From positions 19,405,360-19,469,359 of the forward strand of contig NC_043019.1 of the NCBI RefSeq assembly GCF_006345805.1: a stretch of DNA of 64,000 nt, given 5' to 3'. The position numbers were made by a program. This stretch comes from Octopus sinensis (taxonomy: Eukaryota). Below are positions 9,001 to 61,900 of this stretch, in pieces; position 1 is the stretch's first letter; each line of letters starts with the position of its first letter.

Positions 9001-11716
9001 GACAAAATTAGCTTCTATGGAGCCCCAGGATGATTTATTTTGAGACATTTGTTTGGAAAAGAAAAATGCTTCATGACATCAGATATATTACTTCTTTGGT
9101 AAAATCATTGCAATTAATATGTAAGAAACCTGACTCTTTTAATTTCAGGTTGGGCTTCCTTACAATATCCATCAACTCTCTGTTTCTGCTCTGACCTGAA
9201 CCTTTCAACAAAATGGGCAATTGGCTTGGAAGCAATAATGAGAAAAGCAGCACACCATCTTCATCACCACCACCTACACCATCACATCCCTACTCCCCGC
9301 CCACACCATCACATTCCTTCTCCCCACCCACACCATCACGTCCCTACTCCCCGCCCACACCATCACATCCCTTCTCCCCACCCACACCATCACATCCCTA
9401 CTCCCCGCCCACACCATCACATCCCTACTCCCCACCCACACCATCACATCCCTACTCCCCGCCCACACCATCACATCCCTTCTCCCCGCCCACACCATCA
9501 CATCCCTACTCCCCGCCCACACCATCACATCCCTACTCCCCACCCACACCATCACATCCCTACTCCCCGCCCACACCATCACATCCCTTCTCCTCGCCCA
9601 CATCATCACATCCCTACTCCCCGCCCACACCATCAACTTCCTTCTCCCCACCCACACCATCACATCCCTACTCCCCGCCCACACCATCAACTTCCTTCTC
9701 CCCGCCCACACCATCACATCCCTTCTCCCCGCCCTCAAGAACAACTCTGTCACCACCCACATCATCAACTGGAACCAGTCAGAAGCAAGATACGACAAAG
9801 GCAGACAAAGGTTCGTTTTTTTTTAAGCCATAAACCATTGAGATTAAAAGAGAATAGCTAAGTTACTTTTAACATTTAATTCGGTGAACATTAAAAAAAA
9901 AATCAACTGGAATATAATATATGCACAGGTATGGCTGTGGTTTAGGTGTTTGTTTCCCGACCACATTGTTATGGGTTCAATCCTCCCACATGGCACCTTG
10001 GCAAAGTGTCTTTTACTATAGTCCTTGGCTGACCAAAGCCTTGGGAGTGGATTTTGTTGACAGAAATTGAAAGAAACGCATTGTGTGTGACTCCTGACTC
10101 TGCCATCACCTGAGAGTTGTAAACAAATGGGAATTGAAATCCCAATATTGCAATTGGGAATGCAGTTCCTTAACCACCAGGCTATACACTTTCATTATTC
10201 TGCTGAGCCTCTGTGGAATCGGCTGCAAACCTCTCCAACTGTTGGCTGCAGAGTGCAAAGAAACTAATAACTAAAAAGCGTTCATCAACAGAAAGAAAGA
10301 AAAAAAAAGACTAATTTAATGATTTATTATTTTTTACTTAATTATTGTGTTTTTCTTTTGTTCTTAATCTGCAGATGTTCAGAGGTTTTTAATCCAATTG
10401 CTAAGAGATGTCAGTATGGCTGCATATTGTCCTGATCCCAATGTGAGTAAATACACGGTTGCTTTCTTTTTCTTTTTTGTGAGGTGGATCCGGGATTGTA
10501 ATTGCAAATGACCAGCTTTGAGGCTATCTTTTATTTACCTTTCACTGTCTCCTACAAAGTCTCTTTAATACTCTGTCAAATTTAGTGCTTATTTTTTCAC
10601 ATTAATTTGAATAAACCTCATGGTTCTGGGTTCAATCCCACTGCATGGCTCCTTGGCTAAGTGTCTTTTACTATAGCCCCAGGCTGACCAAAACCCTGTG
10701 AATGGATTTTGTAGACAGAAATTGAAAGAAGCCCACTGTATATGTGTGTGTATGTATCTATGTATGTATGCATGGATGTATGTTGTATGTATGTATGTGT
10801 ATATATTTGTATGTATGTATATATGTGTGTGTATATAATCAGTAGTTAAGTCTGAAGAGAGGTACATTCTAAAACTTAGCGAAGTAATAATTGATATTGT
10901 TATTGGTTATGGCCAGTCAGGAAGTTACCATTGGTTTTGTTCCTATAAAGTTCTTAGTGGAACAGGTGACTTTTCAGACTCACTGGCCAGAGGCTGTGAA
11001 AAAAAAAACAGTCTGAAAGGAAATAACAATAATATTAAATTCTTTCATTACATTTGTCACATGGGTCCACTCATTCATACATTACAATAAGGCTTACAGA
11101 ATGTATGAGGATGTGTATACTTAAGATAGAACAAAAACTGGGAATACATAGATGTGGCATGTAAAAAACACCCACTGCTCTCACGCAGTGGTTGGCATTA
11201 GGAAGGGCATCCAGCTGTAGAAACTCTGCCAGATCAAGATTGGAGCCTGGTGCAGCTGCTGGCTCTCCAGACCTCAGTCAGACTGTCCAACCCATTCCAG
11301 CATGGAAAACGGACGTTAATTGAGGATGATGATGGATGCAAATAAACAAAATAAAAAATAAAATGTCAATTGAGAGAGGCAGGAACCTATCACCTAGATT
11401 TAATCAGATCCCTCTACGATCCCGGCCAGCACACTCTCTTCCATACACAGTCACTGAAAAGAGTGAGAGAGGGCCTATGTCCTCTGTCCAGCAAAATATG
11501 AACTGCTACACCTCAACAGCGAAATGGATGGCAGTACAAGCGTAAATAGTCTGCGATACACCCCCCCTCAGAATGAGACAATTTAGCATGGCTGTTTGGA
11601 TACTAATATGGCATGACTGACTGCACATTCAGCCCGTTTTAGCAACAGTACTGCTGAGGTACTGGAGGTAAACGCATGCACAGAAATACACACCTTACAA
11701 ATAAAGAGTGAGAGGC

Positions 11717-11753
<37 letters not shown>

Positions 11754-58900: not shown

Positions 58901-61900
58901 CGTCTACCAAATCCACTTACAAGGCATTGGTCAGCCCGGGGCTATAGCAGAAGACACTTGCCCAAGATGCCACGTAGTGGGACTGAACCCAGAACCATGT
59001 GGTTGGTTAGCAAGCTACTTACCACACAGCCACTCCTGCGCCTAATTTATCTGAATTTTCTCTTTTTAACATTCCTATATTTTATTTCTAAGGACGTCCT
59101 CTTGGTATCAGATGTCTATTATAGAAAGGGCAATTACAAAATGGCTTTGAAATATTGTGAAAAGGCTTACGAATTTATTCCTCCTGACTTTATGTCCAAT
59201 GAGAATTATATGAAACCAATTCTGTATGAAACCATAAAAATAACTGTTGAAGGCTTGCATATGACTTCATTTCCTTGTTATAAAACTAAACCTGACATTT
59301 ATGATGTGTGTAAAGGTAAGTGGAATTTTGTTTTTTCATTTTTTTCAATTACTATGAACTTAACTCTGAGTTTTTCATTGAGGACTTGGCCCACAGTGTC
59401 AAGAGTGGCTATGAGGGGAATCCAAGACAAGCTGATACGGAGGTAGTGATACAGATAAACACAATTAGGCTTCACACACGTGTGCGCATGCATGCGTGCA
59501 TGTGTGGCACCCATGCCAGTGGCACATAAAAGGAACTCCTGCCACGATATGTAAAAGGCACTCACTATGCCCTTGGAATGGTTAGTGTTAGGAAGGGTAC
59601 CCAGCTGCAGAAATCAGGCTAAAATCAGACGAGTTTGGTACAACTCTCTGGTTTACCAGTTCCAGTGAAACTGTCTAACCCATACTGCATGGAAAATGGA
59701 TGCTAAATGATGATGATGATGATGTATCAAACCTAATTATGTTTATTTACATCACTACCTCTCTCTCTCTCTCTCTTTATCAACATTTAACGTCTGCTTT
59801 TCATGCTGGCATGGGTTGGACAGTTTAACAGGAGCTGGCCAGGCAAAAGACTGTACCAGACTTTTGTGTCTGTTTTGGCTTGGTTTTTATGGCTGGATGC
59901 CTTTCCTAATACCAACCACCCAGCAGAGTGGACTGAGTGCTTTTTATTTGGTACCAGCACTGGCAAGGTCACCAAATAACTACAGACTGATAGATAGAGA
60001 GGGAGGGAGAGATTACAGTTTATTAATTGAAAACTATCAACATATACATCTTTACTAACATCATATACATAATTTAAATAAAGTTTTGTAGTCAAGTAGT
60101 TTATTAACTGTGAGATAACAAGACATCAAAAGGTCTTGGGGACAAAGCATTTGATTTGAAATAAAATCAGCATTGAATGAACCATACCAGATGAGCAGGG
60201 ACAAAACAGCTGAGCCAAACTATCTCATATTTAGACCTCAATTGGTAGAGGCTTCAGACTGTTCAGTAGTTAAAGGTGGTCATCATTCAACGATGATGAT
60301 GATGATGATATGTTATAATAATTGATACTAAATTTGACTTAACAGTCAATCTGTCTTGATCATTATGAGGATAGCTAAATGAATGAGTTTCTGTAATCAG
60401 ACAGTGGTACATATAAAATTGGTATTTTAAGTTAGAAGCTAAAGATGGTTGCTAGGTGTAAAAGACTAAACTAAAATATGCGTTTGTATATATATGTGTG
60501 TGTGTATGCATGCGTGTGTGTGTGTGTGTTTTCTGATTGATGTGTTTAATGTTGCTTTAAATTATTTGCATTCATTTTCTGCAGGACTTGAAAGCTTCAT
60601 TTTACAATGTTTGCCTCTCTTATTCAACATTGGAAATGAAGCTGTGAAAAGAGGGGAAGATTTGCTCGGTGCATTTGCCTTTAATACTTTTTACACGTAT
60701 TGGCCATATCATGCTAAAGATTTTTTGAAAACATTTCACCTGAGGCAGCTTGATACTTCAGTATTCAAAATGGATGTTATGCAAAAACTCATTGTACTGT
60801 TTGTGAAGCACAATTTTGACTTGAGAAAACTTGCACTCCATGATGGTGATACCTACTTACACTCATGTGTAAAACTGTCCTTGTATTATGGTATGTGCAA
60901 TTTAATTTACACTTTTTTTGTTGATCTGATTGACACTTTAACTTAGCAATATTTTCTCTATTTTCTAACAGGAAAAGAAAACAATGTTTTGACCTTACAA
61001 GACTTAGCTGTAATTTACATTAAAACTTGGATGAAGTAAAAAAAAAAATTTGCTAACCGTTTAACATTCAATAATATTCCAACTGAAGTAATTCCTTTTA
61101 TTGAATAGAAATCCTACAGTTTAATCTACAGAGTTTAGGGGCAGCAACAATGGAAGGCCATTTCAAATTGTAAAGCTTAGCTTTTGTAGAGCTTTAACTG
61201 TGATTTATGCACAAGCAGTAGTGAAATAGCAGTGAAGGTTTGATTTTTTTTGAACTTGCAAACTTTTTGAGCCCTGATGCAAAATCCTTAGTTGTTCTGA
61301 GACTCTATTATGGGATAATTTCAAGATCTTTGTTCATGATACCTGGTAGGAAACTGGTTTGAATTCTGTATGAATGAGGTCATTGTGCTGAAGGTGAAAG
61401 GGTTGTGGAGAGAACTTTAGTTACAAAAAGTGGTGTGAATTGCTTAAGGCTGGTTGGTCAGGAAAGGAATTATTTAATGGAAGGTTCACATTTTTGTTTT
61501 CTTTTTAATAATTCTTTTACATCCAGTTGTCCATGTTAACAATTCTGCATTTTGGGTATCTGCTATCAATAATAACTAGAGGCAGGCAAAACTCTGCGTT
61601 TCTCACAGACACAAGTAACCAACTTTGAACTTGGCACTCTATAATTTCACTTCACAAATTGTTTGCCTCAGAGTCACTGATATAAGCATCTTATATATTC
61701 CTCCCTTGACACATCATCAACAGCATTTGACATCCATTTTCCATGTTGGTATTAGTTAGATGGTTCAACTGGAACTGGTAAGCTGGAGAGCTGCATCAGG
61801 CTCCTGTCTGTTTCCGTTTGGTTTCTATGACTGAATGTCCTTCCTGACACTGACCATTTCATAGAATGTACTGGCTATCTTTCACGTGTCACTAGAATGA

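What the first reader, a model, noticed from the sequence alone, without database searches (positions are those of the whole stretch)
9213..61039. Large TPR/ankyrin gene built from a repeated 4-exon module
Seen in sequence: after the repeat exon, exon phases cycle 1-0, 0-1, 1-1, 1-1 (10375/14936/20166/21414; 27070/32859/35671/38079; 56267/59093/60585/missing). The third exon of each cycle has a similar length (327, 312, 306 nt) and ends in an LH-type helix plus Gly (ALHVAAEIATVSG, IHKILQLTLDIG, YLHSCVKLSLYYG). The fourth carries the ankyrin hairpin (DRNKQTA, NARNETLLH). Inference: an ancient tandem multiplication of a TPR-like plus ankyrin cassette, now strongly diverged. From memory the cassette resembles the single TPR-ankyrin region of TRANK1, so this could be a lineage-specific, possibly immune-related, multi-module relative.
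Basis: partly seen in the sequence, partly recalled or inferred. Interest (0 to 1): 0.7.

Follow-up and report, generated by a model that had tools for sequence, protein, structure and literature searches.

The report
Octopus TRANK1-like gene's repeated modules
The window holds the front third of an octopus gene of the TRANK1 helicase family, whose protein-binding region is three very old, much-diverged copies of one TPR-plus-ankyrin unit, each copy encoded by four exons; it is a tidy case of a known gene family, not a new kind of system.

Summary
They reproduce residues 1-877 of the NCBI model LOC115223722 of Octopus sinensis. The "missing" 13th exon exists in that model but lies beyond base 64000.

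Single-sequence comparison shows no similarity between modules. Profiles built from 20 mollusc relatives align the three modules end to end (E 1.7e-48, 8.3e-36, 8.5e-46). The TPR halves match each other, the ankyrin halves match each other, and the cross and reversed controls are negative. The phase-1 intron inside a Gly codon falls in the same alignment column in all three modules.

The gene is collinear with a 2896-aa Argonauta protein that ends in a UvrD-like helicase. That helicase is clearly of the TRANK1 family. A separate O. sinensis "TRANK1-like" model begins in the same tandem repeat that ends this model.

Three full modules occur in cephalopods, bivalves and gastropods. The deuterostomes examined show one full module plus a partial one. 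The multiplication is therefore ancient and mollusc-wide, not octopus-specific. Immune function was not tested.

The parts
9213..9810 (+). Exon 1: ATG (MGNWLGS...) followed by a Pro/Ser/Thr/His-rich tandem repeat (27 bp x 17, 9276-9734); ends in phase 1
   Evidence: Open frame of 199 codons and ATG; donor AAG|GTTCGT; TRF repeat; P0001 residues 1-83 map here, with fewer repeat units
10375..10442 (+). Exon 2 (module 1, exon a), 68 nt, phases 1-0
   Evidence: Acceptor and donor; P0001 84-107 at 100% identity
14936..15080 (+). Exon 3 (module 1, exon b), 145 nt, phases 0-1
20166..20492 (+). Exon 4 (module 1, exon c), 327 nt, phases 1-1; start of the ankyrin half; ends ...APALHVAAEIATVS|G
   Evidence: (100% identity to P0001); ankyrin-half profile match
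21414..21626 (+). Exon 5 (module 1, exon d), 213 nt, phases 1-1; second part of the split ankyrin repeat plus the DRNKQTAFE hairpin
   Evidence: (weak donor CTG|GTAAAC)
27070..27236 (+). Exon 6 (module 2, exon a), 167 nt, phases 1-0; degenerate TPR half
32859..32976 (+). Exon 7 (module 2, exon b), 118 nt, phases 0-1
35671..35982 (+). Exon 8 (module 2, exon c), 312 nt, phases 1-1; ends ...KIHKILQLTLDI|G
38079..38327 (+). Exon 9 (module 2, exon d), 249 nt, phases 1-1; carries the only near-threshold Pfam ankyrin match
   Evidence: (Ank_4, E 0.0018, below cut-off)
56267..56517 (+). Exon 10 (module 3, exon a), 251 nt, phases 1-0; retains an LKSTGN TPR start
59093..59315 (+). Exon 11 (module 3, exon b), 223 nt, phases 0-1; carries the only TPR motif seen by Pfam, below cut-off
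   Evidence: (TPR_2, E 1e-4, 22.6 bits against 27)
60585..60890 (+). Exon 12 (module 3, exon c), 306 nt, phases 1-1; ends ...GDTYLHSCVKLSLYY|G. The 13th exon (module 3, exon d) lies outside the window
   Evidence: 44% identity to Argonauta P0004 residues 1066-1164

Best explanation
[quoted passage not shown] The product has four parts. First comes a disordered N-terminus that begins MGN and carries a proline-rich tandem repeat. Then come three tandem modules of about 250-335 residues. Each module has a TPR-type helical half followed by an ankyrin-repeat half, and each is encoded by four exons with phases 1-0, 0-1, 1-1, 1-1. The three modules descend from one ancestral module by duplication of the whole four-exon block before cephalopods, gastropods and bivalves diverged. 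The clearest trace is a phase-1 intron splitting the Gly codon of the 'LH..(helix)..G' ankyrin motif at the same position in all three copies.

Shown here: the exon chain, module homology at profile level, the shared intron position, collinearity with helicase-bearing relatives, and an all-helical solenoid model.

Inferred: the gene continues beyond the window, through a second low-complexity repeat (KKGxATAAVS), into the helicase now annotated separately as 'TRANK1-like' (P0007). Also inferred: the three TPR-ankyrin modules serve as protein-docking or sensing surfaces that position or regulate the ATP-driven helicase. In octopods the TPR halves have lost most of the co-chaperone-type peptide-clamp signature that bivalve and gastropod relatives keep, so they probably act mainly as structural scaffold. 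An antiviral or stress-response role is likely by analogy with virus- and interferon-induced TRANK1 of vertebrates. That role is the least secure step.
For: Exon chain.

Species and model: (100% identity to NCBI LOC115223722).

Orthologue with helicase: exon 12 alone finds Argonauta P0004 (E 5.4e-16; 2 hits of about 1.84 billion representatives, the other spurious). P0001 residues 47-1093 align collinearly to P0004 327-1382 at 38% identity, with the conserved part ending near P0001 residue 960. P0004 carries UvrD_C and UvrD-helicase matches at 2441-2759.

Family: P0004 residues 1900-2896 hit 482 proteins at E<=1e-3. The best-named hits are mollusc and vertebrate TRANK1 (E 1e-158 to 1e-117).

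Continuation: P0007 residues 1-235 match the terminal repeat of P0001 at up to 80% identity. P0007 residues 499-1430 match P0004 1975-2894 at 48%. Walker A (GRSGTGK[TS]) and a Walker-B DE pair are present in 6 of 6 family members checked.

Module homology (alignment A1 of 20 mollusc proteins, cut at the octopus exon-block borders): M1-M2 E 1.7e-48 over 307 columns, M1-M3 8.3e-36 over 301, M2-M3 8.5e-46 over 312. TPR half against TPR half gives 1.2e-26, 3.5e-19 and 1.7e-29. Ankyrin half against ankyrin half gives 8.5e-31, 5e-21 and 3.7e-23. Five TPR-against-ankyrin controls give E 0.27-0.59. Six reversed controls give E 0.09-0.68. An independent set of 18 collinear proteins gives E 6.2e-19, 1.1e-13 and 1.3e-18.

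Shared intron: G264, G534 and G877 fall in the same column in 3 of 3 pairwise alignments, under two alignment schemes.

Age: modules group by position. M3 groups 11 of 11 (SH-aLRT 100), M1 11 of 11 (94) and M2 9 of 11 (92).

Fold: AF2 model with pLDDT mostly 80-93 over residues 120-935, all helical; residues 1-119 and 936-1094 are disordered. Foldseek hits are ankyrin and TPR solenoids. Relatives pass Pfam TPR and Ank cut-offs at the aligned sites in the order Ank, TPR, Ank, TPR, Ank.
Against: No single-sequence similarity between modules: the best of 55 exon pairs has z 1.9, and self-BLASTP of P0001 and of P0004 gives no internal hit at E<=100. In P0001 itself no Pfam family reaches its cut-off (Ank_4 21.4 bits against 22.7; TPR_2 18.9 against 27). 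TPR and ankyrin repeats are common motifs, so part of the profile similarity is generic. Only one of three intra-module introns is at an identical column. In the tree the two octopod M2 rows sit on a long branch next to amphioxus, not with the other nine M2 rows. The public model P0001 ends with a stop inside the repeat, and P0007 sits on a different, 92.9-kb contig, so continuity with a helicase is not shown for this species. The module HMMs were built from molluscs only, which biases the module counts against deuterostomes. Nothing here bears on expression or function.
Confidence: 0.82

Rival explanations
1. Gene fission: in Octopus the TPR-ankyrin scaffold (this gene, 1094 aa) is a stand-alone protein, and the helicase is made from a separate gene. 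The modules would then act without a covalently attached motor.
For: NCBI annotates the two parts separately in O. sinensis (P0001 on a 32.9-Mb contig, P0007 on a 92.9-kb contig). In O. bimaculoides a helicase-only model, P0006, starts at the equivalent of P0007 residue 450. Short N-terminal models (P0002 of 301 aa, P0003 of 198 aa) exist in O. bimaculoides.
Against: P0001 ends and P0007 begins inside the same 10-residue tandem repeat (up to 80% identity over about 120 residues). This is what a model or assembly break inside a repeat looks like. P0007 starts at a Met that is part of the repeat unit. The Argonauta protein carries both parts in one chain, in the same order.
Confidence: 0.2
2. 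The three modules are not copies of one block. Each acquired TPR and ankyrin repeats independently, and the period-4 phase pattern is chance.
For: No pairwise similarity at sequence level. The phase pattern alone has a chance of about 0.018 given the phase make-up, which is not overwhelming. Two of three intra-module introns are not at identical columns.
Against: Profile alignments run the whole length of about 300 columns in register. The halves match only their counterparts, and the cross and reversed controls are null. The module borders defined by the exon blocks coincide with the ends of the profile alignments to within about 5-27 residues. The Gly intron is identical in the three copies.
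Confidence: 0.04
3. The locus is a decaying or mis-modelled copy (pseudogene or partial duplicate) of a TRANK1-like gene, and it makes no functional protein.
For: The octopod sequences are the most diverged in the family. The TPR clamp signature is largely lost and about one TPR is deleted in module 2. Five donors are weak. Introns are full of LINE insertions. A partial paralogue exists in O. bimaculoides (P0003).
Against: All 12 exons are open in the expected frames. Identity to Argonauta is 30-56% in 11 of 12 exon segments (exon 2: 1 of 11 aligned positions), with few gaps, as expected under purifying selection. The AF2 model is confident across all three modules.
Confidence: 0.05

Closest known systems
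Argonauta hians hypothetical protein Ahia01_001364900 (P0004, 2896 aa)
   Same: Collinear with the window's protein from exon 3 to exon 13 at 38% identity. It has the same MGN start, a proline-rich N-terminal repeat, three modules and a second tandem repeat after module 3.
   Different: It carries the UvrD-like helicase in the same chain. The units of both low-complexity repeats differ in sequence.
[quoted passage not shown]
   Same: Three full TPR-ankyrin modules in the same order at about residues 25-365, 365-730 and 750-1085, followed by a helicase. Modules are orthologous by position.
   Different: They keep canonical TPR signatures that pass Pfam cut-offs, and the scallop P0021 resembles CHIP, HOP, SGT and TOM70 TPR domains. 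They have a fourth, partial (mostly ankyrin) site at about 1120-1540 that was not detected in the octopod proteins. The N-terminal and inter-domain tandem repeats seen in the octopod proteins were not looked for in them.
Vertebrate TRANK1 (for example gar P0057, coelacanth P0053, Xenopus P0084, aardvark P0061)
   Same: Same helicase family (E about 1e-130 to the Argonauta helicase part). The first ~330 residues match a whole module (coverage 0.89-0.99, E 1e-29 to 1e-42).
   Different: Only one full module plus a partial second site (coverage 0.33-0.69) was detected, with mollusc-trained models. The helicase sits nearer the N-terminus (gar 1354-1685 of 2925).
Three-TPR co-chaperone-type domains (CHIP, HOP/STIP1, SGT, TOM70) and ankyrin-repeat stacks
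   Same: The TPR half of module 3 in the scallop relative matches these solved domains at E 1e-9 to 1e-6. The octopus model is an alpha-solenoid with ankyrin-1 and AnkB as top fold hits.
   Different: In the octopus protein the K/N/N/K/R clamp positions (a motif I recalled, not taken from a call) are mostly replaced. No Pfam TPR or Ank cut-off is met.

Membership tests
[quoted passage not shown] | N-terminal region of TPR plus ankyrin repeats homologous and collinear with that of named TRANK1 proteins | tested here: met
   BLASTP of P0001 against 104 named family members gives collinear hits to cuttlefish, scallop and oyster proteins. Module HMMs hit named TRANK1 proteins of molluscs, echinoderms, amphioxus and vertebrates at the expected N-terminal sites.
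[quoted passage not shown] | UvrD-like SF1 helicase/ATPase domain in the same polypeptide, C-terminal to the repeats | tested here: inconclusive
   It is not in the window, and the public model P0001 has none. It is present in the collinear Argonauta protein and in O. sinensis P0007, which overlaps P0001 in the terminal repeat. Whether the two octopus models are one gene could not be checked.
[quoted passage not shown] | Nearest relatives of the helicase part are TRANK1 proteins rather than other UvrD/Rep helicases | tested here: met
   Tested for the orthologue only. P0004 residues 1900-2896 give 482 hits at E<=1e-3, and the best 120 listed are dominated by proteins named TRANK1, TRANK1-like or lupus brain antigen 1.
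[quoted passage not shown] | Induction by virus or interferon-type signalling, as reported for vertebrate TRANK1 | not testable with these tools
   I saw only passages: a table in PMC5702629 (crocodile cells, poly I:C, log2FC +4.72) and a table in PMC8195618 listing Aplysia TRANK1 as an 'interferon-stimulated gene' in a neuro-inflammation module.
Ankyrin repeat (Pfam Ank clan) | Sequence match to an Ank model at or above the curated cut-off | tested here: not met
   P0001 scores 21.4 bits on Ank_4 against a cut-off of 22.7, and 17.2 on Ank_2 against 27.3. Exons 4, 5 and 12 give no hit. The aligned sites of relatives do pass (P0021 Ank_2 59.2 bits, Ank 34 bits). The ankyrin halves align to each other at E<=5e-21. 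Foldseek top hits are ankyrin-1 and AnkB. I therefore call these diverged ankyrin repeats by homology and fold, not by the Pfam threshold.
Tetratricopeptide repeat, three-TPR co-chaperone type | Match to TPR models at cut-off and retention of the peptide 'carboxylate clamp' residues | tested here: not met
   P0001 scores 18.9 bits on TPR_2 against a cut-off of 27. The clamp-type signature LKxxGN...NR[AS]...KG[HY]WR is visible in bivalve and gastropod rows but mostly replaced in the octopod rows (the motif itself is recalled). Relatives pass (P0021 TPR_2 40.5 bits; PDB matches to CHIP, HOP and SGT).

The most novel reading that the evidence does not exclude
Octopods have remodelled the mollusc TRANK1-type helicase. 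They lost the fourth ankyrin site and most TPR peptide-clamp residues. They gained an MGN (myristoylation-like) start and two fast-evolving low-complexity tandem repeats that flank the three modules. In Octopus the gene may even have split at the second repeat, giving a free TPR-ankyrin scaffold and a separate helicase that work as a two-part, possibly membrane-tethered, nucleic-acid surveillance system.
Probability: 0.15. Interest if true: 0.55.

Novelty: new member of a known kind. Interest (0 to 1): 0.35.

Why it matters
It gives a family assignment and a domain map to a gene that NCBI lists only as 'uncharacterized protein'. It also suggests that two O. sinensis models are halves of one gene. 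More generally, it shows that the N-terminal region of TRANK1-type helicases is a tandem array of one ~300-residue TPR-ankyrin unit: three full copies in molluscs, and one full plus one partial copy in the deuterostomes examined. The exon structure still records the duplication. My searches found no paper describing this (TRANK1 + UvrD + ankyrin, 0 papers; listings only, with no title on domain structure). TRANK1 has no known mechanism, although it is a psychiatric-genetics locus (recalled; one title in the listing concerns neuropsychiatric risk genes) and is reported as virus- or interferon-induced in expression studies. A defined repeat unit gives a rational way to cut the protein into pieces for binding and structural work.

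Tried and rejected
- Exon-against-exon Smith-Waterman with 300 shuffles each: 55 pairs, best z 1.92, nothing significant.
- Self-BLASTP of the P0001 core and the P0004 core at E<=100: no internal hit.
- Pfam exon by exon: only sub-threshold Ank (exon 9) and TPR (exon 11) matches, plus chance hits such as DUF1877, MCM_C, HMGL-like and CbtB.
- phmmer of P0001 against PDB sequences: only designed consensus TPR proteins at E>=0.0086.
- P0005, the second hit of the representative search, is a repetitive protein that accumulates many weak matches (BLASTP E 0.027 each). 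I dropped it as spurious.
- Search for full-length relatives of the Argonauta N-terminal region among proteins of 1592-5068 aa: it found only itself.
- Atlas feature search: generic Ank and Ank+TPR clusters only, and no structure held.
- Foldseek against PDB: generic alpha-solenoids with TM 0.07-0.19, nothing specific.
- Iterating the module HMMs drifted: the module 2 profile recruited the first module of vertebrates. I therefore used only collinear, non-overlapping mollusc rows or the A1 alignment.
- In the first half-module test the TPR halves did not match (E 0.12-0.32), because those rows lacked the TPR parts of the relatives. The A1-based cut corrected this.
- Rfam at gathering score and ARAGORN over the whole window: nothing.
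- Complex prediction was not used; no binding claim is made.
- I made no spliced concatenation of the exons of my own. Exons were searched one by one, and the public model P0001 was used by its id where a whole protein was needed.
- Not available or not checked: transcript data; octopus DNA beyond base 64000; intron positions in other species' TRANK1 genes; supplementary files of papers; the closed collections metagenome contigs and viral contigs (not relevant here).
- Nothing in the window looked human. It matches Octopus sinensis at 100%.

Full report
**What the window is**

The translation of exon 4 (20168-20491) is 100% identical to NCBI 'uncharacterized protein LOC115223722 [Octopus sinensis]' (P0001, 1094 aa). 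It is 94% identical to an O. bimaculoides model. The window has no N and about 35-48% G+C. Nothing in it looked human.

**Checking the observation**

- GT donors give exons of 598, 68, 145, 327, 213, 167, 118, 312, 249, 251, 223 and 306 nt. The intron phases are (1,0,1,1) three times.
- Five donors score only 5-6 of 9 on a simple consensus.
- tblastn places P0001 residues 1-877 on exactly these exons. Residues 878-1094 have no match in the window.
In the public model it begins GYFDLLELI... and contains DNNMRTAFDLL. It lies beyond base 64000.
- Exon 1 holds a 27-bp x 17 tandem repeat. The window's frame is open for 199 codons, while the model has 83 residues there.
- With 9 phase-1 and 3 phase-0 introns, a perfect period of four arises in 4 of 220 arrangements.
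Exons were searched singly, and the public model was used by id wherever a whole protein was needed.

**What family it belongs to**

- Exon 12 alone, scored against about 1.84 billion representatives, found two proteins.
  - One, P0005, is a repetitive protein matched by many weak stretches. I dropped it.
  - The other, P0004 (2896 aa; later named Argonauta hians Ahia01_001364900), aligns with P0001 collinearly from the end of exon 1 into the terminal repeat at 38% identity. It crosses 10 of 12 exon junctions without gaps.
- P0004 ends in a UvrD-like helicase (Pfam matches at residues 2441-2759).
- P0004 residues 1900-2896 hit 482 proteins at E<=1e-3. [quoted passage not shown]
- Among these hits is an O. 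sinensis 'TRANK1-like' model, P0007 (2480 aa, on a 92.9-kb contig).
  - Its first 235 residues are the same KKGxATAAVS repeat that ends P0001, at up to 80% identity.
  - Its residues 499-1430 match P0004 1975-2894 at 48%.
- P0001 and P0007 therefore tile the Argonauta protein. I infer that they are two halves of one gene, broken in the repeat by assembly or annotation. This could not be checked.
- Walker A and the Walker-B DE pair are present in 6 of 6 family helicases inspected.

**Are the modules really repeats?**

At the single-sequence level they are not detectably similar.
- 55 exon pairs give a best z of 1.9.
- Self-BLASTP of the P0001 core and of the P0004 core gives nothing at E<=100.
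- No Pfam family reaches its cut-off in P0001.

With relatives, the picture changes.
- I built a local set of 104 named family proteins. It left out 17 proteins (P0005 and 16 hits without an organism-bearing name) and P0001-P0003.
- HMMs made from the octopus and Argonauta modules hit other TRANK1-like proteins at two to four sites about 330 residues apart.
- Eighteen mollusc proteins have three non-overlapping, collinear sites. Their independently aligned modules give hhalign E 6.2e-19 (M1-M2), 1.1e-13 (M1-M3) and 1.3e-18 (M2-M3).

I then cut the 20-protein alignment A1 at the octopus exon-block borders. hhalign gave the following:

| Comparison | M1-M2 | M1-M3 | M2-M3 |
|---|---|---|---|
| Whole module, E-value | 1.7e-48 | 8.3e-36 | 8.5e-46 |
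| Whole module, columns | 307 | 301 | 312 |
| TPR half vs TPR half | 1.2e-26 | 3.5e-19 | 1.7e-29 |
| Ankyrin half vs ankyrin half | 8.5e-31 | 5e-21 | 3.7e-23 |

- Five TPR-against-ankyrin controls gave E 0.27-0.59.
- Six reversed-sequence controls gave E 0.09-0.68.
- An earlier half-module test failed for the TPR halves (E 0.12-0.32), because those rows lacked the relatives' TPR parts.

**Intron positions**

- In all three pairwise module alignments, under both alignment schemes, the phase-1 intron that splits the Gly after the 'LH...' helix falls in the same column. These are G264 (E4|E5), G534 (E8|E9) and G877 (E12|E13).
- The other two intra-module introns keep order and phase but lie 7-31 columns apart, in the weakly aligned TPR half.
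- The alignments start within about 5-27 residues of the exon-block borders.
- So the four-exon block is in register with the protein repeat. Strict positional identity is shown for one intron only.

**How old and how widespread**

- Module HMMs built from A1 find three full modules (coverage 0.83-1.0) in Argonauta, cuttlefish, eight bivalve proteins and gastropods. In several of these proteins a partial fourth site follows at about residues 1120-1540.
- The fourth site was not detected in P0001, P0004 or P0007.
- Gar, coelacanth, shark, Xenopus, aardvark, amphioxus, a hemichordate, a brittle star and a sea star show one full module plus a partial second site. Lamprey shows one site.
- These models are mollusc-trained, so the counts in deuterostomes are lower bounds.
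- I built a quick IQ-TREE tree of 43 modules. It used 11 of the 18 collinear mollusc proteins, three modules each, plus 10 first modules from non-molluscs. P0021, P0049, P0031, P0042, P0040, P0041 and P0048 were left out.
  - All 11 M3 rows group together (SH-aLRT 100).
  - All 11 M1 rows group together (94).
  - 9 of 11 M2 rows group together (92). The octopod M2 pair sits on a long branch beside amphioxus.
- The triplication therefore predates the split of cephalopods, gastropods and bivalves.

**Fold and motifs**

- An AlphaFold2 model of P0001, made with A1 as its alignment, has mean pLDDT 69.1 and pTM 0.43.
  - It is confidently helical over most of residues 120-935, with a low-confidence dip at 396-423.
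  - It is disordered over residues 1-119 and 936-1094.
- Foldseek returns ankyrin-1, AnkB and TPR solenoids at low TM scores.
- The scallop relative passes Pfam cut-offs in the order Ank, TPR, Ank, TPR, Ank, helicase. Its module-3 TPR half matches solved CHIP, HOP, SGT and TOM70 TPR domains.
- In alignment blocks, the bivalve and gastropod rows show the LKxxGN...NR[AS]...KG[HY]WR signature that I recall as the co-chaperone peptide clamp. The octopod rows have lost most of it, and they lack about 32 residues in module 2.

**Mechanism (inferred)**

- The three modules form an alpha-solenoid docking region in front of an SF1 helicase/ATPase.
- The octopod version is degenerate in its TPR halves. 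It is flanked by two low-complexity repeats that differ between Octopus and Argonauta.
- TRANK1 is listed as strongly induced by a viral mimic in crocodile cells (passage in PMC5702629). It is listed as an interferon-stimulated gene in an Aplysia neuro-inflammation module (passage in PMC8195618).
- I saw only those passages and the search listings. No mechanism for TRANK1 appeared in the listings and passages I saw.

**Verdict**

It is a new, previously unnamed member of a known family, with a clear evolutionary record in its exon structure. Interest is modest.

Noticed in passing
window 15668-18685 (+); 49711-52174 (-); 54250-55692 (-); fragments 28324-29188 (-) and 31227-32032 (-): A non-LTR retrotransposon (LINE) sits in intron 3 with an uninterrupted 1005-codon frame that carries endonuclease and reverse-transcriptase domains. 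Closely similar copies, judged by eye from the ORF translations, lie in intron 9 on the other strand.
   Followed up: partly
window 44056-46287 (+), 46371-47651 (+); fragments 13582-14653 (-), 33272-34417 (-), 57265-58194 (-): Further reverse-transcriptase ORFs of at least one other LINE type lie in introns 2, 7, 9 and 10. The 18-kb intron 9 is largely retroelement sequence.
   Followed up: partly
window 9276-9734: Exon 1 holds a 27-bp x 17 tandem repeat (9-residue Pro/Ser/Thr/His unit). The window's frame is open for 199 codons, but the NCBI model has only 83 residues there, so 116 codons (about 13 units) are absent from the model. The cause could be repeat-length polymorphism, a modelled intron inside the repeat, or an assembly difference.
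   Followed up: partly
window 20493-20521 (just past the exon-4 donor): Reading through the exon-4 donor gives EELENSFL and then a stop. Two O. bimaculoides models (P0002 of 301 aa, P0003 of 198 aa) end with exactly this peptide. This suggests a conserved short isoform by intron retention or intronic polyadenylation, or shared mis-modelling. P0003 is a partial paralogue on the same contig as P0002.
   Followed up: no
window 9213-9233; P0004 and P0002 N-termini: The O. sinensis, O. bimaculoides and Argonauta proteins all begin MGN. This fits the N-myristoylation pattern as I recall it. Only 4 of the 105 family proteins in my local set begin with MG.
   Followed up: partly
outside the window: P0001 residues 964-1094 and P0007 residues 1-235: The same 10-residue tandem repeat (KKGxATAAVS) ends the model of this gene and begins the separate O. 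sinensis 'TRANK1-like' helicase model, which sits on a 92.9-kb contig. One gene has probably been split by assembly or annotation.
   Followed up: partly
window 10839-11090 (+) and 12780-13025 (-): The same ~80-codon ORF text (…SVVKSEERYILKLSEVIIDIVIGYGQSGSYHWF…) occurs in opposite orientations within intron 2. It is an interspersed repeat present as an inverted pair.
   Followed up: no
window about 5900-6700 and 47800-48550: There are long low-complexity tracts (CA/TG-rich and TA-rich microsatellite-like sequence) that produce spurious His/Thr-, Cys/Val- or Tyr/Ile-rich ORFs on both strands.
   Followed up: no
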